This document shows positions 17,329-59,649 of a stretch of 64,000 bases of DNA, piece by piece. The DNA comes from Pseudomonadales bacterium (GTDB lineage: Bacteria; Pseudomonadota; Gammaproteobacteria; Pseudomonadales; JBECKS01). The notes under the pieces were generated by a model. That model ran no database searches and had not been told where the DNA came from. It saw only the letters and a program-made list of their open reading frames with translations. The DNA is taken from the NCBI GenBank assembly GCA_965223975.1, contig OZ245031.1, positions 2,132,145 to 2,196,144 on the forward strand, written 5' to 3'. Position 1 is the first letter of the stretch; each line of letters starts with the position of its first letter. Position numbers and translations under genes: made by a program.

Positions 17329-19738
17329 ATGCCGCTGGTGATTGTAAACATAGTATTAGCTATCACTTTTCTATTTGGCTCTATCGTAGTCAATGCTAAT
17401 TCGCCTGAACTTTTTTCTTTTTTAAGTGCTGAAGAAAAACAGTGGGTCTTAGATAACCCAAAAATAGTGGTTGGAAATGAGCGAGACTGGCCCCCCTTTG
17501 ATTTCGAAGAAAATGGTGAAGCTAAAGGCTATACCATTGATTTAGTCAAGTTGATGGCGGGTAAGCTCGGTCTAGAGGTTGAGTTTGTAGGTGACCTTAC
17601 CTGGGATGAGTTGATGTCTCGATTGGAAAGTGGTGACATCGACATGATGCCTGCGATTTATAAGTCTCCTGAAAGAGAAGAGTATTTGAGCTTTAGTCAC
17701 AGTTATTATTCCCAACCTTCAATTATTGTTGTTAGAAACGGTAATGAGTCTGTAGCTAAATTTGAAGACCTTAAACATAAAAAAGTAGCGGGGGTGAAAG
17801 GTTATTTAGTGACCGAGCGCCTTAAGAAGAGCCACCCTGATATACAAGTAGTAGAGTACGATACGGTGGTCTCATGCTTGCAATCAGTCGCAGTAGGAGA
17901 GGTAGATGCCTACATAGATAGTATCGGTTTACTGGCATATACACTTGAACGCAACTTTATCCCTAATCTAAAAATAATAAACGGCTTAGAACAGTTTGAA
18001 TTATCGAACCCGCCTATGCATATGGCGGTAGGAAAGCAGAGCGAGGTGTTGGTTAGTTTAATCAATAAATCACTCGCCGCAGTTAGTGATGAGGAAAAGC
18101 TTCTTTTGGCAGAAAAGTGGCTGCAAACCAGCTTTTACGAAGACAAGATCATTTTAACTCAAGAGCAAATTGATTGGGTTAAATCGCATCCTAAGATCAG
18201 GCTGGGGCTAGACCCTGCTTATGCTCCATATAGCTTTAAAAATGAAGAAGGTGAATACCTTGGGATAGCCGTCGATTTTCTACACTTGCTAGGACAAAAA
18301 ATTGGAGTGGAGTTTGAGGTTGTTCCTAACCTTTCTTGGGTAGAGATGCTAAGCCACGCAAAAGAACAAAAGCTAGATGTGATAACTCCTGTTGTTCAAA
18401 CCTCCGAACGTAAGGAGTATTTGAACTTCACCCCAGTTTATATTCCGACCCCACTGGTTACTGTAGGCAAAGAGAGTTTGGATTTGGCGGCTTTAGAATC
18501 CGGGGGCTTATACGATCAAGCGAAAGTAGCGCTGGTTAAGGGTTACTCTTCAAGCGATAGGTACATATCAGACCATCCAAGTGCAGATATTGTTTGGGTA
18601 AATACCGCGTTAGAAGCTCTTCAAATGGTGTCTTCAGGACGTGCTGATTTAAGTGTGATGGTGATTGGAGTCGCCTCACAAATTATTCGTGAATACGGTA
18701 TGACACAGCTAGAAATTTTAACCTACTACGATGAAAACTACGATGGCCAAAGAATTGGAATTCGTAGTGACTGGCCTGAGCTTTCGGTGTTGTTAGGTGT
18801 TGCCCTAGATGATGTGAGTGAAAAGGAGCGTAAAGAGATTTATGATCGCTGGATTAGCGTGTCTTTTCATAAAGAAGCAGGCTATAGCTTATTATTTAAG
18901 GCTATTTTGGGTCTGGTGATTGCGTTGCTGTTAATGTCTCTCTATGTGCGTCGTTTGAACTCAGAGATCGAACAGCGTCATCAGGTCCAAGCTAAATTAG
19001 AAGAGAGTAACTATTTTCTAGCACAGGCTAAAAGAAGAGCTGATCGTGCTAATCAAGCCACTTCAGAATTTGTATCGTCCTTAAGCCATGAACTCCGAAC
19101 CCCTTTGACCTCTATCATTGGCTTCTCTCAGCTGTTAAAACTTGATAACACACTTGCCCGAGGAGCATCACACCAAGGCGGATCATATTGAAAAGGCGGG
19201 AGAACACGTTATTAAACTGATTGATGATGTGCTTGATCTATCCATTATAGAGGCGGGTAAATTACGCTTATCACCTGAGCCTATTAAAGCCGGGGAGATC
19301 GTTCAGGAGAGCGTCCATCTCATCAGCCCTCAGTTAAATGACAAAGGCCAAGGTTTGGCTGTAGAAGAGAGCGGGCTAGGAGATGAGCTTATTTATGGTG
19401 ATCGACTAAGAGTTCGCCAGATAATCTTAAATATATTAAGTAACGCGGTAAAATATAATGAGCCTAATGGCAGTATCGATATAAGCTATGAACGCCAGCA
19501 AAACCAGCTGAAGATTTTAGTTGCTGATACTGGGCAGGGGCTGAGCACGCAGCAGTTGAAGGTTTTATTTGAGCCCTACGAGAGAGCAGGCGCCGAGAAG
19601 AGTAATATTCTGGGTAAAGGTATGGGGCTAGCAATCTCAAAGCGGTTGGCAGAATTGATGGGTGGAGAGATTGGTGTTGAGAGTGAAGAGGGCAAGGGCT
19701 CGTGCTTTTGGCTGACTTTACCCCTAGTAGATAGCTAG
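17329..19738 (+). pseudogene. Sensor histidine kinase with two periplasmic solute-binding (SBP_bac_3-like) domains, split by a frameshift in HisKA
   Basis: ORF 17329-19191 ends inside HisKA (SHELRTPLTSIIGFSQLLKLDN). The 19142-19738 frame continues the domain (LPEEHH..IEKAGEHVIKLIDDVLDLS) and then gives HATPase_c (N-box, G1, G2). The frame change is at about 19148-19153. No response regulator is adjacent. Confidence 0.8.
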
Positions 19739-31737: not shown

Positions 31738-31823
31738 GCCGAAGTGGTGGAATTGGTAGACACGCCATCTTGAGGGGGTGGTGAGCTATGCTCGTGGGGG
31801 TTCAAATCCCCCCTTCGGCACCA
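31738..31823 (+). tRNA. leuU: tRNA-Leu (anticodon GAG), long variable arm, encoded CCA
   Basis: Hand-folded: acceptor gccgaag/cttcggc, anticodon stem ccatc/ggtgg with loop ttGAGgg, and T-arm ggggg-ttcaaat-ccccc. It is in the same position as leuU after secG in E. coli. Confidence 0.9.
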
Positions 31824-31983
31824 AATCTATTAAATAATATTGGTGTTTTTTCAAGCATTATTTCTATTTTCTGTTTGTAAGGACATAAGCGAGCTGAGTG
31901 TGTATGATTTGTTCGCTTGGATCGCATAGCTTGGTTACCGCAATTTAATCACGGAACGTGTTTCTACTAATAAAAAAATAATA

Positions 31984-32610
31984 ATGAGGCGCAATATGCG
32001 AGATAAACTTCTTTTGTGGACATCCATTTTCTTTTTGAGTTTGGTTGTTGTTGCATGTGATGACGATAAGGACGAAAGTACTGAACAAGCAGTACCTGAT
32101 ACACAAAAATACGTATTTGTGAGTAGCTCTACTCATACAGGAAGCTTAGGTGGTTTATCAGGTGCGGATGCTATTTGTAACCAGTTAGCATCAAATGCCG
32201 GATTGCCTGGAACCTATAAAGCTTGGCTTGGTGATAGTACAGATGGTCCTGCGACTCGCTTTACCCAATCTAGTGTTCCTTACGTGCGTACCGATGAAAA
32301 TCAAATTGCGTCGAATTGGGCGGATTTAATTGATGCGAGTTTAGATCAGCCGATTAATTTAGATGAGAATGGGAATGCGGCGCCTAGTTCGAGTGGGTTT
32401 GCTAGCGATTGCTCTATTTCTACTGCGGTTTGGAGCGCTGCTTCTTTGAACGGTACATCTTACGGTAATTTTTGTAATAATTTCACATCAACAACAGGCA
32501 GCGCTTATGTGGGAGACTACTCAGTAACATTTTCAAATTGGTCGGATAGTTGTGTCGTTCCTACTGCGGCCTGCGCTAACACTGCACCTATATACTGTTT
32601 TCAGCAGTAA
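31984..32610 (+). CDS. Lipoprotein with an endostatin/DUF1554-like (C-type-lectin-fold) domain
   Basis: Lipobox LVVVAC. GSLGGLSGADAICNQLASNAGLPGTYKAWLGDS aligns by eye with endostatin [32 protein letters not shown]. The C-terminal APIYCF resembles AYIVLCIE. Confidence 0.6.
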   Translation: MRRNMRDKLLLWTSIFFLSLVVVACDDDKDESTEQAVPDTQKYVFVSSSTHTGSLGGLSGADAICNQLASNAGLPGTYKAWLGDSTDGPATRFTQSSVPYVRTDENQIASNWADLIDASLDQPINLDENGNAAPSSSGFASDCSISTAVWSAASLNGTSYGNFCNNFTSTTGSAYVGDYSVTFSNWSDSCVVPTAACANTAPIYCFQQ

Positions 32611-32757
32611 GTACTCCCTTGGCTCTATTATCACTGTGCCTAGTCGCAGTTGGTAATATGTCTCGCCTTGTAAGTGCCTACTACGAACTGAAGAGTGTTA
32701 GTGGTATGTTATTATTAAGGATTAAAAAAAGTTCAAATCGGTAGATATAATAATAAA

Positions 32758-33549
32758 ATGAAGATTTTTGAGTACGAGAGAAATAACTACACCCTGTATG
32801 GAATATTGTTTGGATTGTGTTTTCCTATAGGTGCGACCTTATTAGAAATCTTAATAAACCCGATCGAGATTTCGATAACATCAATATTAGCACTTCATAA
32901 GCAGATACACTTTTTATGGATGATTGATACGGCACCGGTGGTCTTGGGCTTGTTTGCTCGTTTAGCGGGCCAAAAGCAAGATAGCGTAAACGCCGTTCTT
33001 AATGATGCTTTGATCGCGGTAGAAGAAAAGAAGCTCGCTATCGAAGTCCTCGAAAAGAATGAATTTGTAGCTAAGTTGTTCTCTGATATAAGGGATCTGG
33101 CTATTGAGTGTGGTTCTGAACAGGAATTCGCCACTAAAAATGTCGGTTTGTTAACCCAGGTGATCGAGGCAAAGGTGGGCGTGTTTTATTTGCTCGATGA
33201 CAGCGGTCTGTTAAATCCGGTCGGGACCTATGGTGTTGATTCGGAAACATTTCAATCTGGTTTGGCCTTAGGAGAGTCGATAGTAGGCCAAGCGGCGAAA
33301 GATGGTAAAACCATTAAAGTAGAAGGCGGAGTGGCTGAGTTCTTAGAGATTCAGTCTGGTTTGGGTAAAGCATCGGCAGACGTCTTGGTGTTGTCGCCAG
33401 TGAGTTTTGGTGAAAAAGTTTTAGGGGTTCTCGTGTTTGGATTTTTCCAGAAGCTTGGTTCAGAGAAATTAAATTTAGTTGGTTCTCTATCTGAAGCTTC
33501 TGGGCGTTCGTTGGTATCTTTGACAGCTAGAAAGGTCTTAGATTCATAA
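32758..33549 (+). CDS. Membrane protein with a C-terminal GAF domain and no output domain
   Basis: Two N-terminal TM helices, a coiled linker, then a GAF-like region (VGVFYLLDD...GESIVGQAAKDGKTIKV...VLGVLVFG). Confidence 0.65.
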   Translation: MKIFEYERNNYTLYGILFGLCFPIGATLLEILINPIEISITSILALHKQIHFLWMIDTAPVVLGLFARLAGQKQDSVNAVLNDALIAVEEKKLAIEVLEKNEFVAKLFSDIRDLAIECGSEQEFATKNVGLLTQVIEAKVGVFYLLDDSGLLNPVGTYGVDSETFQSGLALGESIVGQAAKDGKTIKVEGGVAEFLEIQSGLGKASADVLVLSPVSFGEKVLGVLVFGFFQKLGSEKLNLVGSLSEASGRSLVSLTARKVLDS

Positions 33550-33569
33550 TAGCAAAGGCGATTGCTTAC

Positions 33570-34301
33570 TTACATTTGCAAAGAACGAATATACAGAATA
33601 ACTGCGTTGATATCATGTGTGGTAAGTTCTTCTCCCCAAGGTGGCATTCGGTCTGATCTTCCAATCGCTTTGCCGCCCTTTTGAATAATCTTCTTCATGT
33701 AATCGTCTGTCGATTTAGTCTCACGTAGGTTTGACGGAGATGGGTCTTTTATTATCTTTGCTAGCCTTCCGTTACCTTCGGCAAACTCACCATGGCAATT
33801 GACGCACCGCCCTTTGTATAGTTTGCGTCCGTATTCGACGCTAGGCACTTGTCTATCAGCAATCTGTGATAGTTTCTTTTGAGCAAGTTCAGGGTGTTGT
33901 TCAAGCTTAGAAAGAAATAGGGTAAGTGATTCGATTTCTGTCCAAGTTAGCTCATTTCCCCAGGGGGGCATTAAATAACCAAAATCTCCTTTGCTGATAC
34001 CGTTAACAATAATCGCTTTTGTGGCTTCGCGGTCTTGAAGGGATTTTAGGTGTTTTAGCTTGAACAGATTGGTATTTGGATAGGTGTCTAAAATTAAGGG
34101 CAATACCCCATCACCCATAGCGTAATTGCCGTGGCATAAAGCACACTTATTTTGAAAGGTCTTAGCGCCGAGTCCAAAGTCAGGGGTAGGGTCTTTGATA
34201 ACATCTAAATAGTCGTTGGAAAAAGCTTCTGTATGCGCTAGCCATAGACAAATGCCGAGCAAAGCGTTTTTTAATGGCCCCAAGGTATTTTTATTTAACA
34301 T
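33570..34301 (-). CDS. Periplasmic di-heme c-type cytochrome
   Basis: Signal peptide, two CxxCH motifs (CALCH, CVNCH), and two MPPWG motifs that could supply Met ligands. Confidence 0.85.
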   Translation of the reverse strand: MLNKNTLGPLKNALLGICLWLAHTEAFSNDYLDVIKDPTPDFGLGAKTFQNKCALCHGNYAMGDGVLPLILDTYPNTNLFKLKHLKSLQDREATKAIIVNGISKGDFGYLMPPWGNELTWTEIESLTLFLSKLEQHPELAQKKLSQIADRQVPSVEYGRKLYKGRCVNCHGEFAEGNGRLAKIIKDPSPSNLRETKSTDDYMKKIIQKGGKAIGRSDRMPPWGEELTTHDINAVILYIRSLQM

Positions 34302-34602
34302 GAATTTTCATCTGCATTTGAGGGTGAATGGCACACTCAATGTCTATCGTACCTTTTTTAGTGAGCTGAATACTTCGTGATTCCCCTTTTGGATATGACC
34401 CAAGATCAAAAGCCTGTGTATCTGATAAACTAAAAATATTATGAGAGAAAGGATCGCTGTTTAGAAAATTAATAGTGTCTCCAAGGGATGCGGTAACCTC
34501 CTTTTCGCCAACAAAGGATTTGTTCTGTTGAATAATGGTATGTTCTTTTGCCAATAAAATGGATGAGCTTAGTGCGAATGTTATGAAAATTAAAAATCTC
34601 AT
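34291..34602 (-). CDS. Small amicyanin-like type-1 copper protein (cupredoxin)
   Basis: Signal peptide. Candidate ligand set is SHN ... CAIHPQM (C-x2-H-x2-M, as in amicyanin CTPHPFM). It overlaps both neighbouring genes (4 nt and 11 nt). Confidence 0.7.
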   Translation of the reverse strand: MRFLIFITFALSSSILLAKEHTIIQQNKSFVGEKEVTASLGDTINFLNSDPFSHNIFSLSDTQAFDLGSYPKGESRSIQLTKKGTIDIECAIHPQMQMKIHVK

Positions 34603-35645
34603 AATTTATCCTCGGTGGGTAATATAGGTAAGTTAACTTCGATTTGTTTTGATGATAAAGCTTTGAGGAATTCCACAAGGTTTTCTTTATCTTTGTTTGA
34701 TAGTTTTAAGTCGGTCTTCATATCAGGAGAGAGCCCAGGTCCCTTTGCCCCAGAGTTATAGTGTTCAACCACTTGCTCTAATGTTGTAGCTTGCCCGTTA
34801 TGAAAGTATGGAGCGGTATAGCTAATATCTCTTAGTGTAGGTGTTTTAAAGGCGTATTTGTTGATTGATATCGGTTTTTCGTTATAGCGACCTAGATCCG
34901 ATTTGCTGGTACCAATGTTATGAAAACCATTATCTGTGAAGTTGGGCGCCTGGTGACAAACCGCGCAATTGCCTTTGTCGGGGTCTAAAAATATTTTAAA
35001 ACCTTTCACCTGGCTTTTGGTCATAGCTTTTTTGTCCCCTTTTACCCATTGATCAAAAGGGGAGTTATTGCTGACTATAGTTCGCTCATAGCTTGCAATA
35101 GCTTTTGCAAAAGTGTCTTTGCTTATACCTTCTGAAGGGTACGCTTGCTTAAATGCTTTTTGGTAGCCAGGAACTCTGTTAAGCCAGATCACTAATTTGT
35201 CGAGGTCCATATGCATTTCGTCGCTTGATTTTAGGGGCCCGAGTGCTTGTGTTTCAAGCGAGGGCTCTCGTCCGTCCCACATTTGCAAATAGTTGAAACC
35301 GCTGTTGATGATGGTAGGGGACGCTCGATCCAGTACTTTGCCTCTAAAACCAATAGCTGTAGGTAGTCCATCTGACCATCCGAGTGATGGGTTATGGCAA
35401 GTCGCACATGACATATTCCTGTCTCCGCTTATACGCGGATCAAAAAATAGCTTCTTACCTAGATCTACACGATAAGCGTTGGCCTGATTGTCTTCTGGTT
35501 CGTCGGGCCGCGCCGGTAACAACCAGTCACTTAGGCTGGGATGGCCCGGCTTTACCACAACATCGTCTGCGTTCGAGGTAGAACATAGGATTGCAAAGCT
35601 GGCTAATATTACTAGTAATGATGGATGGTATTGATAACTGCACAT
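34599..35645 (-). CDS. Di-heme cytochrome c peroxidase / MauG family protein
   Basis: Contains CATCHNP and CAVCHQAPNFTDNGFHNIG, plus FKTPTLRD...APYFHNG, typical of the CCP_MauG family. Confidence 0.88.
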   Translation of the reverse strand: MCSYQYHPSLLVILASFAILCSTSNADDVVVKPGHPSLSDWLLPARPDEPEDNQANAYRVDLGKKLFFDPRISGDRNMSCATCHNPSLGWSDGLPTAIGFRGKVLDRASPTIINSGFNYLQMWDGREPSLETQALGPLKSSDEMHMDLDKLVIWLNRVPGYQKAFKQAYPSEGISKDTFAKAIASYERTIVSNNSPFDQWVKGDKKAMTKSQVKGFKIFLDPDKGNCAVCHQAPNFTDNGFHNIGTSKSDLGRYNEKPISINKYAFKTPTLRDISYTAPYFHNGQATTLEQVVEHYNSGAKGPGLSPDMKTDLKLSNKDKENLVEFLKALSSKQIEVNLPILPTEDKL

Positions 35646-35746
35646 ATATGAATACTATCTCGATTTTTTGATTTAATACTCGCTTGAATTAAGGCGAGGG
35701 AAGTGTAGAGTATTGATCGCAGTGGATGTGAAAAATTTTCGGAAAA

Positions 35747-35762
35747 TGTGATTCTTGTCACA
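35747..35762. promoter_or_regulatory. Perfect CRP-family binding palindrome TGTGA-N6-TCACA
   Basis: tgtgattcttgtcaca lies in the divergent region between the peroxidase operon (ATG at 35645) and the HAMP-GAF gene (ATG at 35788). Confidence 0.5.
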
Positions 35763-35787
35763 ACATCAATAAGTAAATGGTTATGTT

Positions 35788-37062
35788 ATGTCCTTAGAGG
35801 GTTTCGGAATAAAGCAAAAGGTATTCTTTTTAGCTGCCTTTTCGTGTTGTTCGTTGGTCTTGGTGTTTTGGGCGGCCAGTGTGGCTTTATCTCAAAACCT
35901 TAATCAGATAAAAAATCTTGAAACACAATCGCTGCCTTTAATTGAAACTTTAATGGCTTCTCGACAATTGTATGTTGATATGGAGCAAACGTTCGCAGAG
36001 GCGGCGCTGGTTGGTGATTTAGAATGGTACTCGGACGCTGTCGATATTTCTGACAAAAATAAAATGCTGCTTATCAGTATGTCTGTAGAGAATGACAGAT
36101 ATAAAAAAGAGGTTAGAGAAATTGTTGAAATTCTAGATGACTATGAAGTGGTTGCGAATATTTCTTTAGATGCCACCTTGGGGCGTCCACTAACTACTGC
36201 AGAAGAAATTGCGCAAAGTACGAGAGCAGGTGAACTAGGTCGCTCCTTCCAAAGCCATATTGATGGTATCTATAAAAGTGAGCATGAAACGGTTGGCAGC
36301 CAAGTTGAAGATATTATTCAGTTTAACAGTAATATGCGTGTAGTTGGCCTACTTTTTTTGATAGCAAGCTCATCTGTGTTGGCTTTGGTTTCCTTGTATA
36401 TTGGGCGTTCATTATCTAAAGGGTTTAATAAAGCGATAGAGGTGGCGGATTCGATTGCCAAGGGGGATTTTCAGACTCAATTTCAAATTAAGTTTAGTGA
36501 TGAAATTGGGCATTTGCTCTTGGCTTTACAAAAAACTCAAAAGCAACTAAAGCATAGTGCTGAGAAAGACCAACGGGAAATGAGTTTAAAGAATGATATT
36601 TCTGATTTACAAAGCGACCTCATGGGACATCCCAATGTGGGGAGTTTGGCTTCTAGTATATTAAATAATCTGGCGAGCTTATCTGGTGCTACTTCTGGAG
36701 TGCTTTTTGTTCAGCAACAAGATGGCTTTGTAGATGCTTTAGCTAATTACGCGTGCCGCTTGGAACAAGGAAAAAATGATCGTTTTCAGCTAGGAGAGGG
36801 TTTGGTGGGGCAGTGTGCTCTGGAAGGTAAATCTATCTCCATTACAAATTCGGACCATCAATACTTAGTTTATGGGGATACTGCCAAAGGCTCAAATTAT
36901 GCGCCACAGAATATTTATCTAATACCGTTGATACATAACGAGCAGGTATTGGCAGTGGTTGAGTTGTCCAGCGCGGTAGAGTTATCAGATTATTTCTGGG
37001 ATCTTTTAGAGAGGGTTAAATCCAATCTCTCGGCTAATATCGCGATTTTGCTGGATAAGTAA
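35788..37062 (+). CDS. Membrane sensor with a periplasmic helical domain, HAMP and C-terminal GAF, no output domain
   Basis: TM1, about 150 aa of periplasmic sequence, TM2, a HAMP-like region (IEVADSIAKGDF..), then GAF (GEGLVGQCALEGKSI...VLAVVELS). Confidence 0.7.
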   Translation: MSLEGFGIKQKVFFLAAFSCCSLVLVFWAASVALSQNLNQIKNLETQSLPLIETLMASRQLYVDMEQTFAEAALVGDLEWYSDAVDISDKNKMLLISMSVENDRYKKEVREIVEILDDYEVVANISLDATLGRPLTTAEEIAQSTRAGELGRSFQSHIDGIYKSEHETVGSQVEDIIQFNSNMRVVGLLFLIASSSVLALVSLYIGRSLSKGFNKAIEVADSIAKGDFQTQFQIKFSDEIGHLLLALQKTQKQLKHSAEKDQREMSLKNDISDLQSDLMGHPNVGSLASSILNNLASLSGATSGVLFVQQQDGFVDALANYACRLEQGKNDRFQLGEGLVGQCALEGKSISITNSDHQYLVYGDTAKGSNYAPQNIYLIPLIHNEQVLAVVELSSAVELSDYFWDLLERVKSNLSANIAILLDK

Positions 37063-37142
37063 CCCCCCCCTATCGAGGGGGTAGATCATTTATCTCATAA
37101 AGCTCAATAATCACTACTTCAATAAACTTAAGGAATATTGTC

Positions 37143-38315
37143 ATGTCAATCCGATTTAAGATATTTAAAATAGTTCTGCTTATTTTGTCTTTGGGTTTTC
37201 CACAGGTTTATGCGGCCGACCCCTTGGTGAATACTGGCGTTTTACTTAAGCAACTTAAAAAGCTAGAAAAGTGTCGTAAGTGTCCCGTATCAGAAATTAA
37301 GAACTTTAACGAAAGTAAAGTGATCAATATCTCTGGAGTGCCCGGATACTCGAAAGGGATCAGTACCAAAATCAGGGCACAAATGTTTGTTGCAGACGCC
37401 TATTCTGAGAGTACTACGGTTCAGGTTTACGGTTTGCCTGCGATTATTTATTTCCCGGATAACCCTAATAAAAGCCCTTTAAGAATATCTATGATTACTG
37501 TTGATGTGCATGAGCAGATTCATGAAAAAGTATTAGATTCAAAGGAAGTGGGAGTACCTTACGGTGCTTTGAATGGCAAAAAAAGTAAGTACATTGTTTA
37601 CGGCCAAACCGTGTTAAAAAATACTAAAACTGAATTAAATTATAAGGATGGACGTTTTGAGATGGAGAGCGAAGTAGATATCTCTAATATGAACGACAAA
37701 GACGGCAGAAAATATTTTGATAATTTTCAAGGTTTGGTGACTTCTTTAAATCAAGAACTCGATAAAATGAATAACGTTCATTATCGAAAATGGCAAGAGG
37801 AAGAAGCAAAGCGTATCTTGAAAAAAAGAAAGCAGTTATCCAAGCAGGTTCACACTAATATTACTGACCCTTCGGTCTTTGTGGCGCTTTTTAATTACAA
37901 TGTCAGTTTTGCTAATTTGAAAAAAGAGAGTGAGAAGACGGAGCTGGGTCATTTTGCCTATGATGACTCGGAAGCGCATAAAAAATACAACGTGGGCGTT
38001 GAGTTGATTAACTATGGTAGCTATTACGATATGCTCTATTCGGTGGCTTATGATGAAGCCATTGACGACGATGAGGCTAAGCTAAAGGCAATGATCGATA
38101 AGATGAATGAAAAGCTTGGTGGAAAGATACCTCCGGGAGCGCAGTCCGCGAGCGCACAAGAAACAAATTATAAGGGTATTGTGGATGTTGTCGTGCGTTA
38201 TGACATTAGTCAGGGAGTAAAAGGAAGTACTATGGCAAAAAATGACGAAGGTTTTGCCAAGTTCACTAAGAAAACCTATGGGAAATTACAGAAGATCGCT
38301 GATAAAACTAAATAG
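37143..38315 (+). CDS. Lys-rich secreted hypothetical protein (orphan)
   Basis: Signal peptide ...GFPQVYA-AD and AAGGA SD. I recognise no motif. The gene looks AT-rich. Confidence 0.6.
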   Translation: MSIRFKIFKIVLLILSLGFPQVYAADPLVNTGVLLKQLKKLEKCRKCPVSEIKNFNESKVINISGVPGYSKGISTKIRAQMFVADAYSESTTVQVYGLPAIIYFPDNPNKSPLRISMITVDVHEQIHEKVLDSKEVGVPYGALNGKKSKYIVYGQTVLKNTKTELNYKDGRFEMESEVDISNMNDKDGRKYFDNFQGLVTSLNQELDKMNNVHYRKWQEEEAKRILKKRKQLSKQVHTNITDPSVFVALFNYNVSFANLKKESEKTELGHFAYDDSEAHKKYNVGVELINYGSYYDMLYSVAYDEAIDDDEAKLKAMIDKMNEKLGGKIPPGAQSASAQETNYKGIVDVVVRYDISQGVKGSTMAKNDEGFAKFTKKTYGKLQKIADKTK

Positions 38316-38333
38316 ACTTTAACAATTGTGTAT

Positions 38334-38360
38334 AAAAAAGGGGCTGCGGCCCCTTTTTTT
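38334..38360 (+). terminator. Rho-independent terminator
   Basis: aaaaaaggggc-tgcg-gcccc-ttttttt. Confidence 0.75.
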
Positions 38361-38386
38361 GTGTCTGAACTTTGTATAAGACTTGA

Positions 38387-38422
38387 ATATACGGAAAATC
38401 ATATATATGATTTTCCGTATAT
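38387..38422. promoter_or_regulatory. 36-bp perfect palindrome, candidate ArsR operator overlapping the arsR start codon
   Basis: atatacggaaaatcatat|atatgattttccgtatat. I checked it base by base as a perfect inverted repeat. Confidence 0.6.
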
Positions 38423-38771
38423 GATTATTACACCTTTACAGTTTTATAAATGCCTTGCCGATGAAACCCGCTTGAGCTGCGTATTGTTGATTAGTGCGGA
38501 AGAGGAGCTTTGCGTCTGTGAACTCACTGAGTCCATTGATGCTAGCCAGCCTAAGATCTCTAGGCATCTGGCTCAGCTAAGGGAATGCGGTTTGTTAAGT
38601 GATCGACGGGTAGGCCAGTGGATCTTTTACCGAATTAACCCTGAGCTTCCTTCCTGGGCCAAAGAGGTGCTTGCCAGCACTCTTAAAGGCAACCAAGAGC
38701 TATTAAGCCCATTGTGTTGCCGATTAAATGGTATGAGTAAGCGCCCGGAACGTGGCGTAGAGTGTTGCTAG
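38421..38771 (+). CDS. arsR: ArsR-family arsenic-responsive repressor
   Basis: Contains the ELCVCEL metalloid-binding motif and an HTH (QPKISRHLAQLRECGLL). The start is taken at ATG 38421. The track start 38328 would read through the terminator. Confidence 0.9.
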   Translation: MIITPLQFYKCLADETRLSCVLLISAEEELCVCELTESIDASQPKISRHLAQLRECGLLSDRRVGQWIFYRINPELPSWAKEVLASTLKGNQELLSPLCCRLNGMSKRPERGVECC

Positions 38772-38779
38772 GGGGAAGT

Positions 38780-39250
38780 ATGAAAGTCTTATTTATCTGT
38801 ACTCATAATCGTTGTCGAAGCATTCTGGCAGAGGCAGTTACTAATCATTTTTCAGAAGGTTTGATCGAAGCGCAATCAGCGGGCAGTCAGCCTGTGGGTG
38901 AGGTGCATCCCTTGTCTCTAAAGTATTTAAGCGAATCTGGAATCGGCACCGAGGGATTGGTGAGTCAGTCCTGGGATGAACATGAAACCTGGAATGCTGA
39001 TGTGGTGATTACCGTATGTGATTCGGCGGCGGGGGAGTCGTGCCCGGTATGGTTTGGTAAGTCTTTAAAGATTCACTGGGGTTTAAAAGATCCTTCTGCG
39101 ATAGATGGGAGTGAGCAAGAGAAAGAGCAAGCGTTTAAGCAGCTTATAGCTAAGTTGCAGCTGCGTGTAGAAGCTCTGCTTGAAAATAATGTTCATACAG
39201 CTGCGCCTGAAGAGCTAAAAGGTATTTTTACTCGAGTGGGTGAAATCTAA
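38780..39250 (+). CDS. arsC: Arsenate reductase, LMW-PTP (thioredoxin-coupled) type
   Basis: [14 protein letters not shown] (CX5R P-loop) and a downstream Cys pair ([11 protein letters not shown]). Confidence 0.9.
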
Positions 39251-40260
39251 TGGGCCTCTTTGAGCGCTTTTTAAGTGTTTGGGTGGCGCTGGCCATCGTG
39301 CTCGGAGTTGTTTTTGGATCATTGTTTCCAAACTTATTCCAAGTGTTAGCCGGTTTTGAATACGCTCAGGTTAATCTTTTAGTGGCGGTGTTAATTTGGC
39401 TAATGGTTTATCCCATGATGATCCAGATTGATTTTGCAGCAGTTAAGGATATTGGCAAAAAACCCAAAGGCATCGTTTTGACCTTAGTGATCAATTGGTT
39501 AGTTAAGCCTTTTACGATGGCGGTTTTGGCTTGGGTATTTTTTAAAGTCTTTTTTGCAAGTTGGGTTGATCCGCAAACAGCGAATGAGTACATCGCGGGA
39601 ATGATTTTGCTAGGTGTGGCGCCATGTACCGCCATGGTCTTTGTATGGAGCCAGTTGACTAAAGGTGACCCTAATTACACATTGGTCCAGGTATCAGTAA
39701 ATGATGTGATTATGGTTTTTGCCTTTGCACCTATTGCGGCACTCCTTTTGGGAATGTCGGACATTACAGTGCCTTGGAATACCTTGCTTTTGTCAGTTTT
39801 GTTGTACGTGGTGCTACCTTTAATTGCGGGTTTGATAACACGACGAGTGTTAAATGGCGAAACCGAAAATTTTGTTAACCAACTAAAACCATTGTCGATG
39901 TCGGGCTTGTTGCTAACAGTCGTGCTTTTATTCGCTTTTCAGGCGGAGAGCCTGATCACTAAGCCTCAAAGTATTGTGTTAGTTGCTATTCCCTTACTGA
40001 TACAAAGTTATGGAATATTTTTTATTGCCTACTTTGCCGCCAAGCATATGAAGCTACCTTTTTCTATCGCGGCGCCAGCAGCTTTAATTGGTACCAGTAA
40101 TTTTTTTGAGCTCGCGGTAGCAGTTGCGATCTCATTATTTGGATTGCACTCAGGAGCGGCCCTAGCCACAGTTGTGGGTGTGCTGGTTGAGGTGCCTGTG
40201 ATGTTGTCCTTAGTCAAGTTTTCTAATAAAACTCAACACTGGTTTAAGGGCAATGAATAA
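39250..40260 (+). CDS. acr3: Arsenite efflux transporter, ACR3 family
   Basis: Polytopic, with GVAPCTAMV containing the conserved Cys. It lies in the ars operon. Confidence 0.9.
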
Positions 40261-40978
40261 GTTCCCAGCTGAATTAATTAACATTCAAGAGCATGCGTGG
40301 GCGGCTTCCGATATGGCGGCTTTTAAAGGCGCATCTACTAGTACCCATCCACCAAAAATATTGCTTTTGTACGGTTCTTTGCGTGAACGTTCTTTTAGTC
40401 GTCTAGTGGTTGAGGAGAGTGCGCGTATCTTACAAGCACTCGGCGCTGAGACTCGAATATTTAATCCTTCCGGATTGCCTTTGCCTGATGATGAGGATGA
40501 AAGCCATCCAAAGGTTCAAGAATTAAGAGAGTTAATGGCATGGTCCGAAGGCCAGGTATGGTGTTCACCAGAACGTCATGGCTCGATGACCGGAATTATG
40601 AAAGCTCAAATTGACTGGGTGCCTCTGGCGATGGGAGCTGTGCGTCCAACTCAAGGAAAAACCTTGGCTGTTATGCAGGTTGAGGGTGGTTCGCAGTCCT
40701 TTAATGCGGTTAACCAACTTAGAGTACTTGGTCGTTGGATGCGTATGATCACGATTCCTAATCAATCCTCTGTGGCTAAGGCCTGGAAAGAATTTGATGA
40801 GAATGACCGCATGAAACCCTCTGGCTTTTATGATCGTATTGTCGATGTGATGGAAGAGCTGGTTAAATTTACCATAATGACTCGTGATCACTCAGATTAC
40901 CTAGTGGATCGTTACTCCGAAAGAAAGGAGAGCGGAGAGGAGCTTATCCAACGAGTGAATAAGGATAGAGCTACCTAG
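40253..40978 (+). CDS. arsH: Arsenical resistance protein ArsH (NADPH-dependent FMN reductase)
   Basis: Contains [14 protein letters not shown] and [16 protein letters not shown]. Confidence 0.9.
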
Positions 40979-41046
40979 CTAAGGTTGTTTGCTTGTCTGC
41001 TGATGCAAAAGGGTGATGGCACTTGCTAAGGAGCTAGCGTAGGCTA

Positions 41047-41943
41047 GTGCCTATTATGCAAATACCTGCGATTCAAATACCTGCGAATCATAATTCCGCG
41101 ACAAAGAATTTGTTCTTAAGCTCGGTTATTGTCTTGCTTAGTCTGGTTCTGGTGGCATGCGATGCCCTGTTCCCGCCAAGTCCCTACGATTGCGAGAAAA
41201 TGCCTGAAGTGCTTGAGACAAAAGCAGCAGCCTATGTTCTTTGGCGAAAGGAAGCGGTTCAAATATTCGAGACCAATGTTTTTTCAAAGCTTATTCCTTG
41301 GCTTCTGGCTGAGCGAATGGGACGGGTGGGTCCAGATGGTGAGCCTTTGCCATCGATTAAGTTTTGGCTCAGGGATGATGCGGTTGATAACTTTACGTTC
41401 TCAGATGCTAAGCGCAAAGATGGCGCTGTCATTGCTGGATTGCTATTAATCCAAAACCCACATGAGCAGGAAAAGCTACATGCGCTAATGGATGAGTTAT
41501 TTTACGACTACGCGGCTTTTGAAGTTGATAACAGTATTCCTTTGGATTCAGGCTTTCCTTATGTAAGTGGTGAAATGTTGCCAGGTCTAGTATCGGTATC
41601 TTTTTTTGAAGCGCCGAAAGAGATGTCTCGGGAAAACTTTAAGCAGTATTGGTTTTGCAGTCACACGCCTTTTGCTTTGGATATTCATCCGCTCTGGTCC
41701 TACGAAAGAAATCATGTCAACAAACAATTAGTAGCGCCTAAGAGGGTAGAAGGTCAGCTAAGCTTTGACGCAATAGTGCCTTTGCACTTACAGCATGATT
41801 CAGATATTGAGTTTTCTAGATTTTTCGCAGCTGATGGAAATTCGCCTCTGAAGAATGCCCTACGAATACAGTCCGATGTTGAACGTTTTATAGATATGGA
41901 TAAGATTCAGACCGTGCCTATGCGGCAGTTTATTTATAATTAA
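41047..41943 (+). CDS. Hypothetical lipoprotein
   Basis: Lipobox LVLVAC. I recognise no domain. It is the first gene of a tightly spaced three-gene unit. The start is GTG 41047 or ATG 41056. Confidence 0.6.
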   Translation: MPIMQIPAIQIPANHNSATKNLFLSSVIVLLSLVLVACDALFPPSPYDCEKMPEVLETKAAAYVLWRKEAVQIFETNVFSKLIPWLLAERMGRVGPDGEPLPSIKFWLRDDAVDNFTFSDAKRKDGAVIAGLLLIQNPHEQEKLHALMDELFYDYAAFEVDNSIPLDSGFPYVSGEMLPGLVSVSFFEAPKEMSRENFKQYWFCSHTPFALDIHPLWSYERNHVNKQLVAPKRVEGQLSFDAIVPLHLQHDSDIEFSRFFAADGNSPLKNALRIQSDVERFIDMDKIQTVPMRQFIYN

Positions 41944-41965
41944 AAAATAAAAAGGGAGAGCGAAA

Positions 41966-42730
41966 ATGAGCGCAGAAGCTATCTATCAATACTTACTGTA
42001 CTTTATGTTCGCGATGTGTGCTTTCACTTTTATGGGCAGCTTTTTCTACACCACGCCTTATGGTCGTTTTAAAAAAAGTGATGAAAAATTTGAGTTGCCT
42101 TCTCTACCTGGTTGGCTGCTTATGGAGTTTCCCTGCTTAGTGGCGGGTATTTCTGCTTTTTTTTTAACCGGTGGTAATACTGGCGCATTGGTGCCTTTGG
42201 TCTTTATTTGTATTTGGCAGTGTCATTACATTTACCGTTCGATCATTTTTCCTTTAAGGATGAATAGTCGGAATAAAAAAATGCCGGTGATGGCGGTTGT
42301 TACAGGTATTGTATTTAACTCAATCAATGGCTTTTTAAACGGTTATGCTTTTTCTCATGCTGAGCACCTGCTTGATGCAAGCTGGTTAATGAGCCCAATG
42401 TTTATTGCGGGGGTTTCTATGATGATCGTCGGTTTGGCCATTAATATTCATTCCGATAATGTGTTAAAAAATCTACGAGCGCCAGGCGAAACAGGTTACA
42501 AGGTGCCCAAGGGAGGCTTTTATCGTTGGGTGTCAGTACCGAATTACTTTGGTGAGATTATTGAGTGGTGTGGTTTAGCACTAGCGGCTTGTACTCCAGC
42601 AGCCTTGTCTTTTGCTTTGTTTTCCATTGCTAATTTGTTTCCAAGAGCGCTGGCGCATCATCGTTGGTATCGTGAGACCTTTGAGGACTATCCTGATTCT
42701 CGCAAAGCGATTATTCCATTTGTTATATAA
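41966..42730 (+). CDS. 3-oxo-5-alpha-steroid 4-dehydrogenase (steroid 5-alpha-reductase/TECR) family membrane reductase
   Basis: Contains PKGGFYRWVSVPNYFGEIIEWCGLALA, the C-terminal signature of the family. Polytopic. Confidence 0.8.
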   Translation: MSAEAIYQYLLYFMFAMCAFTFMGSFFYTTPYGRFKKSDEKFELPSLPGWLLMEFPCLVAGISAFFLTGGNTGALVPLVFICIWQCHYIYRSIIFPLRMNSRNKKMPVMAVVTGIVFNSINGFLNGYAFSHAEHLLDASWLMSPMFIAGVSMMIVGLAINIHSDNVLKNLRAPGETGYKVPKGGFYRWVSVPNYFGEIIEWCGLALAACTPAALSFALFSIANLFPRALAHHRWYRETFEDYPDSRKAIIPFVI

Positions 42731-42753
42731 AGAGTTATTTAAAGGGTAGGCCT

Positions 42754-43407
42754 GTGCAATTAGCAATCTATATCATTAGTTTATCGGTTCTGGTCAGTGC
42801 CGTCCTTCATCTACGCGCTGAGAAATATAATGATGTTCGCAAGATTTATATATTTAAGTCCTTAACAACAAGTTTAATTATCGGCTTAGCTTTTTATATG
42901 GGTAGCTTAGATAGCCTTTATACCAAGCTGATTATATTGGGTTTGATTTTCTCATTGGCTGGCGATGTGTTTTTAATCTCCGAGAATGGCTTTGTTCGGG
43001 GCTTACTTAGTTTTTTAGTGGCTCACGTATTTTATATTGCTGCCTTTGTTATAGAGCTTGGTATTGATCAGGTTTTGTATTTGCCGTCTTTATTGCCTTT
43101 TGTTTTGTTTGCTTTAGTTGTAATTGCTCTGGTCTATCCCGGCTTAGGCACGCTCAAGATTCCTGTCTTTGTTTATATCAGCGTGATTTTGCTCATGGGT
43201 TGGCAAAGTCTCAATTTGTATTTGGTAGAAGCTAGTCGTTTTGCATTATCGGCCTGTGTGGGCGCCGCCTTTTTTATGCTGTCTGATTCTTTGATTGCAA
43301 TCGATAAGTTTCGTTCTGAGCTTAAACACAATAGGCTCCTGATCATGAGTACCTATTACTTAGGACAGTGGTTAATAGCCTTGTCGATCTTGGGTTTTGG
43401 GCAATAA
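42754..43407 (+). CDS. YhhN/TMEM86 family protein (lysoplasmalogenase family)
   Basis: Polytopic, with LAGDVFL and FLVAHVFYI motifs characteristic of YhhN. GTG start. Confidence 0.75.
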   Translation: MQLAIYIISLSVLVSAVLHLRAEKYNDVRKIYIFKSLTTSLIIGLAFYMGSLDSLYTKLIILGLIFSLAGDVFLISENGFVRGLLSFLVAHVFYIAAFVIELGIDQVLYLPSLLPFVLFALVVIALVYPGLGTLKIPVFVYISVILLMGWQSLNLYLVEASRFALSACVGAAFFMLSDSLIAIDKFRSELKHNRLLIMSTYYLGQWLIALSILGFGQ

Positions 43408-43494
43408 AGCTCTGGGAGCTTTGCGAGCAGGGGGTGTCCGGGTCTATTTAGGCCAAAATCACCGACTATCAGTTGTCCCAATATGGCTGAAAGA

Positions 43495-43523
43495 TTGACA
43501 AACAGGGGGCTTAGGCATATATT
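43495..43523 (+). promoter_or_regulatory. Near-consensus sigma70 promoter for tRNA-fMet (rimP-nusA-infB operon)
   Basis: TTGACA, a 17-nt spacer, then TATATT. A GC-rich discriminator (ggccgcc) follows, and the tRNA starts 15 nt later. Confidence 0.65.
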
Positions 43524-43537
43524 GGCCGCCTTTCAAG

Positions 43538-43614
<77 letters not shown>

Positions 43615-59452: not shown

Positions 59453-59649
59453 GTTGATAATATATTAACTCTTTTGCCTAAGCTTTAAGGCTAAGCTGTA
59501 ATTTTACAGCTTTTTAGGTTTATGTAAGAGGTAAACAAGAAAGAAGGGGTCTTGTGCTACCGGTTTTCTTTTTATCTGAAACAGAGCTTAATCTGTAAAT
59601 AAAAAGTATCACACGCTTGTCCGTAGCGAAGGCTGATATCCAAAATTAG

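What the first reader, a model, noticed from the sequence alone, without database searches (positions are those of the whole stretch)
32758..37062. MauG/CCP-type di-heme peroxidase, mini-cupredoxin and di-heme cytochrome c operon bracketed by two GAF membrane proteins lacking output domains
Seen in sequence: three minus-strand genes overlap by 4 and 11 nt, so they are likely translationally coupled. They encode a di-heme peroxidase (two CxxCH), a 103-aa cupredoxin with an amicyanin-like ligand spacing (H...C-x2-H-x2-M), and a di-heme cytochrome c. On each side, on the plus strand, is a membrane protein that ends right after a GAF domain. One has 2 TM plus GAF. The other has a periplasmic domain, HAMP and GAF. 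Neither has a kinase, cyclase, phosphatase or HTH output. The two GAF domains resemble each other (GESIVGQAAKDGKTI vs GEGLVGQCALEGKSI). Established knowledge: MauG-like enzymes with amicyanin normally accompany methylamine dehydrogenase genes, and none are present here. Inference: this may be a self-contained periplasmic redox or peroxide-sensing module. The GAF proteins may signal by protein-protein contact, or the peroxidase may mature an unidentified substrate protein.
Basis: partly seen in the sequence, partly recalled or inferred. Interest (0 to 1): 0.65.

Follow-up and report, generated by a model that had tools for sequence, protein, structure and literature searches.

The report
Tyr-ligated di-haem peroxidase cassette with receptor
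Three overlapping genes encode a widespread but apparently unstudied periplasmic trio (a MauG-type di-haem enzyme, a tiny blue-copper protein and a di-haem cytochrome c) that nearly always sits beside a membrane receptor gene, and here that receptor is an unusual HAMP-GAF protein with no output domain.

Summary
In detail: all five ORFs, the 4-nt and 11-nt overlaps, the haem and copper motifs, and both GAF proteins ending just after an intact GAF domain.

The di-haem enzyme has a canonical-bCCP-like scaffold (about 36% identity to MacA). However, the Met ligand of the electron-transfer haem is replaced by Tyr296, which is invariant in 120 homologues. That makes it a MauG-type bCcP, but not MauG itself.

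The three genes form a conserved cassette. In 80 related proteobacterial loci the cupredoxin is adjacent in 75 and the cytochrome c in 71. The usual operon is MCP, enzyme, cupredoxin, cytochrome c, MsrP, MsrQ.

None of those 80 loci has a GAF gene. The window copy lies in a low-GC variable stretch between tRNA-Leu and tRNA-Met.

Even so, two distant full-length homologues of the HAMP-GAF protein (L082, L084) are also divergently paired with a Tyr-type CCP plus a homologous cupredoxin. gafB is therefore probably the cassette's receptor here, occupying the place of the MCP. Nothing links gafA to the cassette. Neither GAF protein looks truncated.

The function is inferred, not shown: a peroxide-driven electron-transfer chain coupled to a receptor.

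The parts
34599..35645 (-). MauG-type (His/Tyr) di-haem bCcP-superfamily enzyme, 348 aa, with an N-terminal signal peptide. Haem motifs are C80-x2-C83-H84 and C227-x2-C230-H231. Tyr296 takes the place of the bCCP Met ligand, and Phe100 the place of the bCCP distal His. W123, Q133, P137 and E143 are conserved.
34291..34602 (-). Mini type-1 copper cupredoxin, 103 aa (about 83 aa mature). Ligands are H54, C90, H93, M96. It contains no Trp. Its start overlaps the enzyme's stop codon by 4 nt.
33570..34301 (-). Di-haem class-I (c4/CcoP-like) cytochrome c, 243 aa. CxxCH at 53 and 166, and an MPPWG motif in each half. It overlaps the cupredoxin gene by 11 nt.
35788..37062 (+). gafB: TM1, periplasmic four-helix bundle, TM2, HAMP, signalling helix, then a complete GAF domain and stop. 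It is transcribed divergently from the cassette and is the probable cognate receptor.
35646..35787 (.). 142-bp divergent intergenic region between the enzyme gene and gafB. The same head-to-head geometry is seen in L082 (405 nt) and L084 (206 nt).
32758..33549 (+). gafA: conserved two-TM N-terminal module, a linker and a GAF of the same subfamily, then stop. It converges on the cytochrome c gene with a 20-nt gap. Membership of the system is not shown.
37063..37081 (+). G+C-rich hairpin (CCCCCCCC-TATCGA-GGGGG) directly after the gafB stop codon. It suggests that gafB is its own transcription unit.

Best explanation
The three minus-strand genes are one copy of a widespread proteobacterial periplasmic cassette. 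It has three components:
1. A di-haem enzyme with a canonical-bCCP-like fold but the MauG-type His/Tyr ligand set on its electron-transfer haem, and no distal His on the peroxide-binding haem.
2. A dedicated 83-residue type-1 copper cupredoxin.
3. A c4-like di-haem cytochrome c.

Proposed mechanism (inferred, not shown):
- H2O2 reacts directly with the five-coordinate haem of the diferric enzyme, with no reductive activation.
- The two oxidising equivalents are held across both haems, in a bis-Fe(IV)-like state as in MauG, BthA and MbnH.
- They are discharged by the cupredoxin, which the cytochrome re-reduces from the respiratory chain.

The cassette normally travels with a transmembrane four-helix-bundle/HAMP receptor. 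This is an MCP in about 80% of related loci and a CHASE3 hybrid kinase in two. In this window and in two distant metagenomic loci it is an output-less HAMP-GAF protein. gafB is therefore most likely the cassette's cognate receptor, filling the MCP's position.

gafA belongs to the same GAF-only class and may pair with gafB, but its adjacency may be accidental. In this genome the cassette sits, without MCP or MsrPQ, in a variable low-GC stretch between tRNA-Leu and tRNA-Met.
For: Shown:
- Domain calls and motifs.
- Tyr296 aligns with the Met of MacA 'KIMGSAQLG'. By the ends of the phmmer alignment it also aligns with MauG residue 294, just as His84 aligns with MauG His35.
- Tyr296 is invariant in 120 of 120 homologues. 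Phe100 replaces the distal His (F in 79 of 120).
- W123, Q133, P137 and E143 are invariant, with the same spacing as MauG W93, Q103, P107 and E113 (residue names from the PDB titles).
- The closest structures are bCCPs: MacA E 4e-61 against MauG 1e-18, and Foldseek TM 0.75-0.80 against about 0.63.
- The field separates canonical from MauG-type bCcPs by Met versus Tyr on the E haem. MauG, MbnH and BthA all form Fe(IV)Fe(IV)=O (PMC11892367; PMC6405878).
- Cupredoxin ligands are invariant in 53 orthologues.
- Synteny in 80 loci: cupredoxin 75, cytochrome c 71, MCP 63, MsrP 40, MsrQ 37. An MCP lies directly upstream on the same strand in 39.
- A CHASE3-HAMP hybrid kinase takes the divergent upstream position in L063 and L067.
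- Full-length gafB homologues P0142 and P0280 lie head-to-head with CCP_MauG genes. Those are 41-43% identical to the window enzyme and keep the Tyr. Each is followed by a protein whose N-terminal half is homologous to the window cupredoxin (E 1e-10, CKIHPKM).
- The gafB model shows a complete four-helix bundle, HAMP and GAF.
Against: - No experiment or paper on this cassette was found, so the chemistry is entirely inferred.
- Known MauG-type enzymes are poor peroxidases and act on protein substrates.
- None of the 80 closest cassette loci has a GAF neighbour.
- Only 2 of 5 independent stand-alone gafB-type loci have a CCP.
- L082 and L084 are related to each other (their CCPs are 65% identical), so they are not two fully independent observations.
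- The periplasmic domains of gafB-type proteins and of the cassette MCP show no detectable homology (hhalign probability below 4%).
- The window locus is a variable islet where adjacency can be accidental.
Confidence: 0.5

Rival explanations
1. The enzyme is a MauG/MbnH-like maturase. It uses H2O2 to modify a partner protein post-translationally. The target would be the adjacent cupredoxin, the cytochrome, or in the distant variant cytochrome P460. It would not act as a peroxidase.
For: - The His/Tyr ligand set defines the MauG-type enzymes. These use H2O2 as an oxidant on protein substrates encoded nearby, as in MauG/preMADH and MbnH/MbnP.
- A small copper protein is always adjacent.
- In L082 and L084 the third gene is cytochrome P460, a haem protein with a cross-linked cofactor.
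Against: - The cupredoxin has no Trp, and it keeps a complete, invariant type-1 copper site, which is the hallmark of an electron carrier.
- The position equivalent to MauG Trp199, the hole-hopping residue, is Gly225 and nearly invariant (offset arithmetic from His231, so an inference).
- The third partner varies between di-haem cytochrome, mono-haem cytochrome and P460. That fits interchangeable electron input better than a single fixed substrate.
Confidence: 0.17
2. The cassette is a signal generator, not a detoxifier. The enzyme converts periplasmic H2O2 (or another oxidant) into the redox state of the cupredoxin. The four-helix-bundle receptor (MCP, kinase or GAF-only protein) reads that state.
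For: - A receptor gene is the most constant neighbour after the three redox genes. An MCP is present in 63 of 80 loci and is the first gene of the operon in 39.
- The receptor output varies (MCP, hybrid kinase, GAF) while the cassette stays the same.
- The cassette MCPs form one family with a conserved periplasmic motif.
Against: - No interaction was tested.
- The periplasmic domains of the three receptor types are not detectably homologous.
- Co-operonic MsrPQ points to damage repair rather than signalling.
Confidence: 0.15
3. Both GAF genes are next to the cassette by accident. All five genes are independent cargo of a variable region, and the L082/L084 resemblance is a lineage-specific coincidence.
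For: - The region lies between tRNA-Leu (31738-31823) and tRNA-Met (43538-43614). These are flanked by conserved secG and rimP-nusA blocks.
- GC is 0.39-0.42, against 0.45-0.47 in the flanks.
- Unrelated ars genes share the region.
- No GAF neighbour occurs in the 80 closest loci.
- gafB-type genes also occur next to unrelated genes.
Against: - The same head-to-head pairing with a Tyr-type CCP plus a homologous cupredoxin recurs in two loci, across about 21% (gafB) and 42% (CCP) identity.
- CCP_MauG genes are rare. A rough estimate of 1-3 per genome (my own, not computed) makes 2 of 5 by chance very unlikely.
Confidence: 0.18

Closest known systems
Canonical bacterial di-haem cytochrome c peroxidases (G. 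sulfurreducens MacA/CcpA, P. aeruginosa CcpA, Paracoccus CCP)
   Same: - Closest by sequence (E 4e-61, about 36% identity) and by predicted fold (TM 0.75-0.80).
- Two CxxCH motifs, the inter-haem Trp, the distal Gln/Pro/Glu and the T-P-T calcium-site motif are conserved.
- These enzymes use small cytochromes c or cupredoxins as electron donors (established knowledge).
   Different: - The Met ligand of the electron-transfer haem is Tyr296, invariant in the clade.
- The distal His that must be displaced during reductive activation is Phe100.
- By the field's own criterion it is therefore not a canonical bCcP.
MauG (TTQ biosynthesis enzyme, Paracoccus denitrificans)
   Same: - His/Tyr ligation is predicted.
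- The equivalents of Trp93, Gln103, Pro107 and Glu113 are present with identical spacing.
- It is adjacent to a cupredoxin with amicyanin-like C-x2-H-x2-M spacing.
   Different: - Only 24% identity, TM about 0.63, E 1e-18.
- TIGR03791 scores 290 bits against a cut-off of 443.85.
- No mauA/mauB-like conserved neighbour.
- The Trp199 equivalent is Gly.
MbnH/MbnP and BthA (other MauG-type bCcPs)
   Same: They are MauG-type di-haem enzymes encoded next to a partner protein and form Fe(IV)Fe(IV)=O with H2O2. MbnH's partner is a copper-binding protein.
   Different: - TIGR04039 (MbnH family) scores 201 bits against a cut-off of 362.85.
- MbnH is 27% identical and BthA matches at E 2e-15.
- The partner here is a classical type-1 copper cupredoxin without Trp, plus a cytochrome c.
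Amicyanin and other small cupredoxins
   Same: - Best PDB hits are amicyanins (E 2.4e-05).
- Same ligand order and C-x2-H-x2-M spacing, and a similar core size.
   Different: - TIGR02657 scores 25 bits against a cut-off of 110.
- No methylamine dehydrogenase is present.
- The family has its own strongly conserved motif, DPFFHNVFSLSD..FDLGSYPKGES.
NreA and other GAF-only signalling proteins
   Same: GAF is the terminal domain with no enzymatic or DNA-binding output. NreA acts through contact with a separate kinase (established knowledge; NreA as a soluble GAF nitrate sensor, PMC12423327).
   Different: - gafA and gafB are membrane proteins. gafB has a periplasmic four-helix bundle and a HAMP domain.
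- The ligand and partner are unknown.
- The subfamily is often found with CheR/CheB.

Membership tests
Canonical bCCP | Two c-type haem motifs in a CCP_MauG fold | tested here: met
   PF03150 at 5.8e-59. CxxCH at residues 80 and 227.
Canonical bCCP | His/Met ligation of the electron-transfer (E) haem | tested here: not met
   The position of the MacA Met is Tyr296, invariant in 120 of 120 homologues. The criterion is taken from PMC11892367.
Canonical bCCP | Distal His on the peroxidatic haem (reductive activation) | tested here: not met
   MacA His93 aligns with Phe100. The column reads F 79, V 12, H 10 of 120.
MauG-type bCcP (broad class) | His/Tyr ligation of the E haem | tested here: met
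   Met by alignment only: Tyr296 corresponds to MauG Tyr294, within an invariant HY motif. No spectroscopy was done.
MauG (TIGR03791 equivalog) | Score above the curated cut-off | tested here: not met
   290 bits against a cut-off of 443.85.
MauG (TIGR03791 equivalog) | Encoded with methylamine dehydrogenase (mauA/mauB) genes | tested here: not met
   The conserved neighbours in 80 loci are the cupredoxin, cytochrome c, MCP and MsrPQ only. There is no such gene at 29-41 kb of the window.
MauG (TIGR03791 equivalog) | Surface Trp199 for hole hopping to the substrate | tested here: not met
   Six residues before His231 is Gly225, which is nearly invariant. The position is set by offset, so this is an inference.
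MbnH family (TIGR04039) | Score above the curated cut-off | tested here: not met
   201 bits against a cut-off of 362.85.
Type-1 copper cupredoxin | His, Cys, His, Met ligand set in a cupredoxin fold | tested here: met
   PF00127 scores 27.2 bits against a cut-off of 21.2. H54, C90, H93 and M96 are invariant in 53 orthologues.
Amicyanin (TIGR02657) | Score above the curated cut-off | tested here: not met
   25.1 bits against a cut-off of 110.2.
Conserved MCP/Tyr-CCP/cupredoxin/cytochrome c/MsrPQ operon | Enzyme, cupredoxin and cytochrome c adjacent and co-oriented | tested here: met
   Window coordinates. Found in 71-75 of 80 loci.
Conserved MCP/Tyr-CCP/cupredoxin/cytochrome c/MsrPQ operon | MCP and MsrPQ in the same locus | tested here: not met
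   tblastn with representatives finds no MCP, MsrP or MsrQ anywhere in the 64-kb window.
Stand-alone TM-4HB-HAMP-GAF receptors (gafB type) | Complete protein ending after an intact GAF domain, with full-length homologues of the same size | tested here: met
   The model has mean pLDDT 86 and the GAF domain ends in helix 401-423. Homologues of 419-451 aa are complete genes inside their contigs.
Stand-alone TM-4HB-HAMP-GAF receptors (gafB type) | Ligand or partner of the GAF domain | not testable with these tools
   Foldseek returns only generic GAF structures.

The most novel reading that the evidence does not exclude
The cassette and its receptor form a new kind of indirect periplasmic oxidant sensor. 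A MauG-type di-haem enzyme would translate H2O2 into the redox state of a dedicated cupredoxin. Interchangeable four-helix-bundle receptors would then read that state. Output-less (HAMP-)GAF membrane proteins would be a previously unrecognised, CheR/CheB-linked receptor class equivalent to MCPs.
Probability: 0.15. Interest if true: 0.8.

Novelty: new variant of a known kind. Interest (0 to 1): 0.55.

Why it matters
Only three MauG-type di-haem enzymes (MauG, MbnH, BthA) have been characterised. Each revealed unexpected high-valent haem chemistry, and the field is actively looking for more.

This clade offers four things:
- It is large. A single scan confirmed 443 stretches encoding a relative in species-representative genomes.
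- It sits on a canonical-peroxidase scaffold.
- It carries its own candidate physiological partners, a cupredoxin and a cytochrome c. This could make the long-standing question of what a bis-Fe(IV) enzyme does outside cofactor biosynthesis directly testable.
- Its constant pairing with a receptor gene and frequent pairing with MsrPQ tie it to the periplasmic oxidative-stress response.

The swap of an MCP for an output-less HAMP-GAF protein also gives a handle on a recurrent class of GAF-only membrane proteins of unknown function.

Tried and rejected
1. gafB as a derivative of the cassette MCP. Only TM2 plus HAMP align (E 4e-12). The periplasmic domains show no homology by profile-profile comparison. 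Rejected.
2. gafA and gafB as recent duplicates. They are 26% identical and share only subfamily-level similarity. Rejected.
3. The GAF domains as free Met-sulfoxide reductases (fRMsr is a GAF protein, which would have echoed MsrPQ). gafA has no Cys and gafB has a single Cys (read from the sequences). As far as I recall, fRMsr depends on conserved Cys residues, which I did not test. fRMsr appears only among generic Foldseek hits. Rejected.
4. A mobile island with att sites. No repeat of the tRNA 3' end and no integrase ORF in the islet ORFs I scanned.
5. Survey from the gafB side:
   - The word-index search found 7 weak hits.
   - The seven-sequence alignment was too divergent for a locus scan.
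   - Long HAMP-GAF-kinase relatives (L088, L089) are not next to CCP genes.
The best CCP relative is 62% identical.
7. Literature searches for the operon found no paper that appeared to describe it, judged from titles and abstracts.
8. Promoter and terminator scans were not above the shuffled expectation.


Full report
**1. Observation**

All five ORFs exist at the stated coordinates. The enzyme gene's stop overlaps the cupredoxin start in ATGA, with GAGGA 8 nt upstream. The cupredoxin and cytochrome genes overlap by 11 nt.

Pfam gives CCP_MauG (5.8e-59), Copper-bind (5.3e-06) and two cytochrome c domains. gafA has GAF_2 only, and gafB has HAMP plus GAF_2. Neither GAF protein has an output domain.

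Haem motifs lie at residues 80 and 227 of the enzyme and at 53 and 166 of the cytochrome. The cupredoxin ligands are H54, C90, H93 and M96.

The hydropathy scan shows one strongly hydrophobic N-terminal stretch in gafA, and I did not confirm the count of two TM segments. In gafB it shows two TM segments flanking about 150 periplasmic residues. The signal peptides of the three redox proteins are read by eye, not predicted by a tool.

**2. CCP or MauG**

By sequence and predicted fold the enzyme is nearest to canonical bCCPs:
- MacA E 4e-61, against MauG 1e-18.
- Model pLDDT 78.
- Foldseek TM 0.75-0.80 and 33-37% identity to bCCPs, 27% to MbnH, and 24% with TM about 0.63 to MauG.

In the MacA alignment, however, the Met of 'KIMGSAQLG' faces Tyr296, and the distal His (MacA His93) faces Phe100. 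The MauG alignment runs from query 60 to 299 against chain 11 to 297. That places His84 on MauG His35 and Tyr296 on Tyr294.

Tyr296 is invariant in the 120 closest homologues, within an HY motif. Position 100 is F in 79 of 120, V in 12 and H in 10.

W123, Q133, P137 and E143 are invariant, with the spacing of MauG W93, Q103, P107 and E113. The position six residues before His231, where MauG has Trp199, is Gly.

The literature separates canonical from MauG-type bCcPs by exactly this Met/Tyr difference (PMC11892367; PMC6405878). The curated MauG, MbnH and His-Xaa-Ser models are all missed by wide margins: 290 of 444, 201 of 363 and 144 of 340 bits.

Conclusion: this is a MauG-type ligand set on a bCCP-like scaffold, in a clade of its own.

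**3. The cassette is conserved**

A scan of species-representative genomes confirmed 443 stretches encoding a relative. The best 80 loci are 52-61% identical and come from Gamma- and Betaproteobacteria.

tblastn with the window proteins finds the cupredoxin (40-56% identity) and the cytochrome c (30-46%) beside the enzyme gene almost everywhere. Clustering all ORFs of these loci gave four further recurrent neighbours:
- A roughly 540-aa methyl-accepting chemotaxis protein (TM, periplasmic domain, TM, HAMP, MCPsignal).
- MsrP.
- MsrQ.
- More rarely, longer MCPs.

| Neighbour | All 80 loci | 52 loci with at least 3 kb on both sides |
|---|---|---|
| Cupredoxin | 75 | 50 |
| Cytochrome c | 71 | 48 |
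| MCP | 63 | 40 |
| MsrP | 40 | 30 |
| MsrQ | 37 | 29 |

An MCP lies directly upstream on the same strand in 39 loci. The four copper ligands are invariant in 53 cupredoxin orthologues, and the window protein has no Trp. No methylamine dehydrogenase-like gene is a conserved neighbour.

**4. Context in the window**

The window is chromosomal. It carries hrcA-dnaK-dnaJ, carB, rlmE-ftsH-folP-glmM-tpiA-secG, and rimP-nusA-infB-truB-pnp.

tRNA-Leu (31738-31823) follows secG, and tRNA-Met (43538-43614) precedes rimP. The 11.7 kb between them holds:
- a DUF1554 lipoprotein
- gafA
- the cassette
- gafB
- a secreted 390-aa protein with no family
- arsR-arsC-ACR3-arsH
- three more genes

GC is 0.39-0.42 at 32-38 kb, against 0.45-0.47 upstream. 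No att-like repeat or integrase was found. The window contains no MCP, MsrP or MsrQ.

**5. The GAF proteins**

Both GAF domains belong to one subfamily (HMM E 6.6e-25 and 8e-45), but this HMM hits none of the 855 ORFs in the 80 cassette loci.

*gafB*
- It has no close relative among 1.84 billion representatives. The best hit has E 1e-30 and 26% identity.
- Most relatives are 600-1500-aa multidomain kinases. Several are end-to-end matches of 419-451 aa.
- Its model (pLDDT 86) shows TM1, a periplasmic four-helix bundle, TM2, HAMP, a signalling helix and a complete GAF domain ending in its last helix.
- A G+C-rich hairpin follows the stop codon.

*gafA*
- It combines a conserved N-terminal membrane module (YGxLFGxxFP...IDTAPxxLG) with one GAF domain.
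- The same module is fused elsewhere to GGDEF, kinase, MCP and GAF-GAF outputs.

Neither gene shows a remnant of a lost domain.

**6. The turn**

I looked up the genomic context of the stand-alone gafB homologues.

| Locus | gafB-type protein | Context |
|---|---|---|
| L082 | P0142, 451 aa | Head-to-head with CCP_MauG (331 aa), a 213-aa protein and cytochrome P460 |
| L084 | P0280, 438 aa | Head-to-head with CCP_MauG (332 aa), a 213-aa protein, cytochrome P460 and H-NOX |
| L083 | P0143, 443 aa | Two unknown lipoproteins |
| L085 | P0151 and P0158 | Three tandem paralogues |
| L091 | P0233, 419 aa | Lipid-synthesis genes |
| L081 | P0122, 438 aa | HisKA-REC, CheR, CheB and a kinase |

In L082 and L084 the CCPs are 41-43% identical to the window enzyme and keep the Tyr (VVR[F/Y]YN). 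The N-terminal half of the 213-aa protein is homologous to the window cupredoxin (E 1e-10, ligands kept, 'CKIHPKM').

So the same geometry, a HAMP-GAF-only gene divergent from a Tyr-CCP-cupredoxin operon, recurs across about 21% (gafB) and 42% (CCP) identity. That is 2 of 5 independent stand-alone loci. CCP_MauG genes are rare, so chance is an unlikely explanation. This is my own rough estimate, not a computed statistic.

In two Agarilytica loci a CHASE3-HAMP hybrid kinase takes the divergent upstream position.

The constant feature is therefore a four-helix-bundle/HAMP receptor beside the cassette, with a variable cytoplasmic output. However, the periplasmic domains of the MCP and of the gafB-type proteins are not detectably homologous.

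**7. GAF-only proteins as a class**

- L090 carries five consecutive output-less GAF proteins, one with the gafA-type N-terminal module.
- L087 carries CheR, CheB and a 257-aa TM-plus-GAF protein with gafA-like architecture (subfamily HMM 1.4e-35).
- L088 and L081 also carry CheR/CheB.

Output-less GAF membrane proteins of this subfamily thus recur, often in multiples and often with chemotaxis methylation enzymes. This makes a gafA-gafB partnership conceivable, but it is not shown.

**8. Mechanism**

*Shown:* the parts list, the ligand substitutions, the conserved synteny and the receptor pairing.

*Inferred:*
- The diferric enzyme reacts with H2O2 without reductive activation, because it has no distal His.
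- It holds the oxidising equivalents on both haems, as MauG, BthA and MbnH do.
- It is reduced by the cupredoxin, which the cytochrome re-reduces.
- The third partner differs between loci (di-haem cytochrome, mono-haem cytochrome or P460), which fits interchangeable electron input.
- Co-operonic MsrPQ fits periplasmic oxidative damage. MauG's bis-Fe(IV) state is known to decay by oxidising nearby Met residues.

*Rivals:*
- A maturase acting on the partner proteins.
- A signal-generating module read by the receptor.
- Accidental adjacency of the GAF genes.

**9. Novelty**

Three full-text searches found no paper that appeared, from titles and abstracts, to describe this operon. That is not proof of absence. 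I rate it a new variant of a known kind: a MauG-type bCcP with a new partner set and a receptor link.

**Verdict**

| Claim | Confidence |
|---|---|
| The three genes form a conserved cassette | 0.9 |
| The enzyme has Tyr ligation | 0.8 |
| The cassette is a peroxide-driven electron chain | 0.5 |
| gafB is linked to the cassette | 0.55 |
| gafA is linked to the cassette | 0.2 |

Noticed in passing
window 31738-43614: A variable 11.7-kb stretch lies between tRNA-Leu (after secG) and tRNA-Met (before rimP-nusA). It has lower GC in its first half (0.39-0.42 at 32-38 kb) and also carries arsR-arsC-ACR3-arsH, an EthD-like ORF, a steroid-5-alpha-reductase-like gene and a YhhN gene. No integrase or att repeat was found.
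   Followed up: partly
window 17329-19191 and 19142-19738: A sensor kinase appears split into two overlapping ORFs. The first has two SBP_bac_3 domains and the first half of HisKA. The second has the rest of HisKA and HATPase_c. This could be a frameshift, a pseudogene or a sequencing error.
   Followed up: partly
window 32758-33000 (gafA residues 1-75): A conserved N-terminal membrane module (YTLYGxLFGLCFP...IDTAPxxLGLFA) has 13 invariant positions. In other organisms it is fused to GGDEF, PAS-kinase, kinase, MCP and GAF-GAF outputs. It matches no Pfam family.
   Followed up: partly
L082 121-2361 and L084 2904-5794: A distant cassette variant: Tyr-type CCP, then a 213-aa protein (cupredoxin plus an extra C-terminal domain), then cytochrome P460, with H-NOX added in L084. 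PCuAC-like and SCO1 copper chaperone genes lie next to L082. This suggests a link to NO or hydroxylamine chemistry.
   Followed up: partly
L090 1975-11835: Five consecutive GAF-only proteins (multi-GAF, HAMP-GAF, gafA-type module plus GAF, dCache-HAMP-GAF, multi-GAF) follow two single-domain response regulators. No kinase is visible in the locus.
   Followed up: no
L081 1020-6166; L087 966-3165; L088 5580-10839: GAF proteins of the gafA/gafB subfamily are repeatedly encoded next to CheR and CheB. This hints that (HAMP-)GAF receptors belong to methylation-dependent, chemotaxis-like pathways.
   Followed up: no
L063 2469-5507 and the equivalent gene in L067: In two Agarilytica genomes a CHASE3-HAMP-HisKA-HATPase-REC-REC-Hpt hybrid kinase is divergently upstream of the cassette, where other genomes have an MCP.
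   Followed up: partly
window 37143-38315: A 390-aa Lys-rich protein with an N-terminal hydrophobic stretch that looks like a signal peptide (read by eye), encoded downstream of gafB, matches no Pfam or NCBIfam family. It is unrelated to the genes found next to other gafB-type genes.
   Followed up: partly
window 31984-32610: A DUF1554/endostatin-like lipoprotein with weak similarity to Leptospira LenA/LenF outer-membrane proteins sits directly after tRNA-Leu.
   Followed up: no
window 56753-60990: A 7TMR-DISM-GGDEF-EAL protein and a DUF3391-HD (HD-GYP-like) protein lie side by side. These are cyclic-di-GMP signalling genes about 20 kb from the GAF genes.
   Followed up: no
L086 1-1628 and L088 2065-4997: Another branch of the HAMP-GAF family is divergently paired with a porin-like beta-barrel protein (about 400 aa) and a 130-143-aa periplasmic protein. 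This pairing is conserved between the two loci (47% and 55% identity).
   Followed up: no
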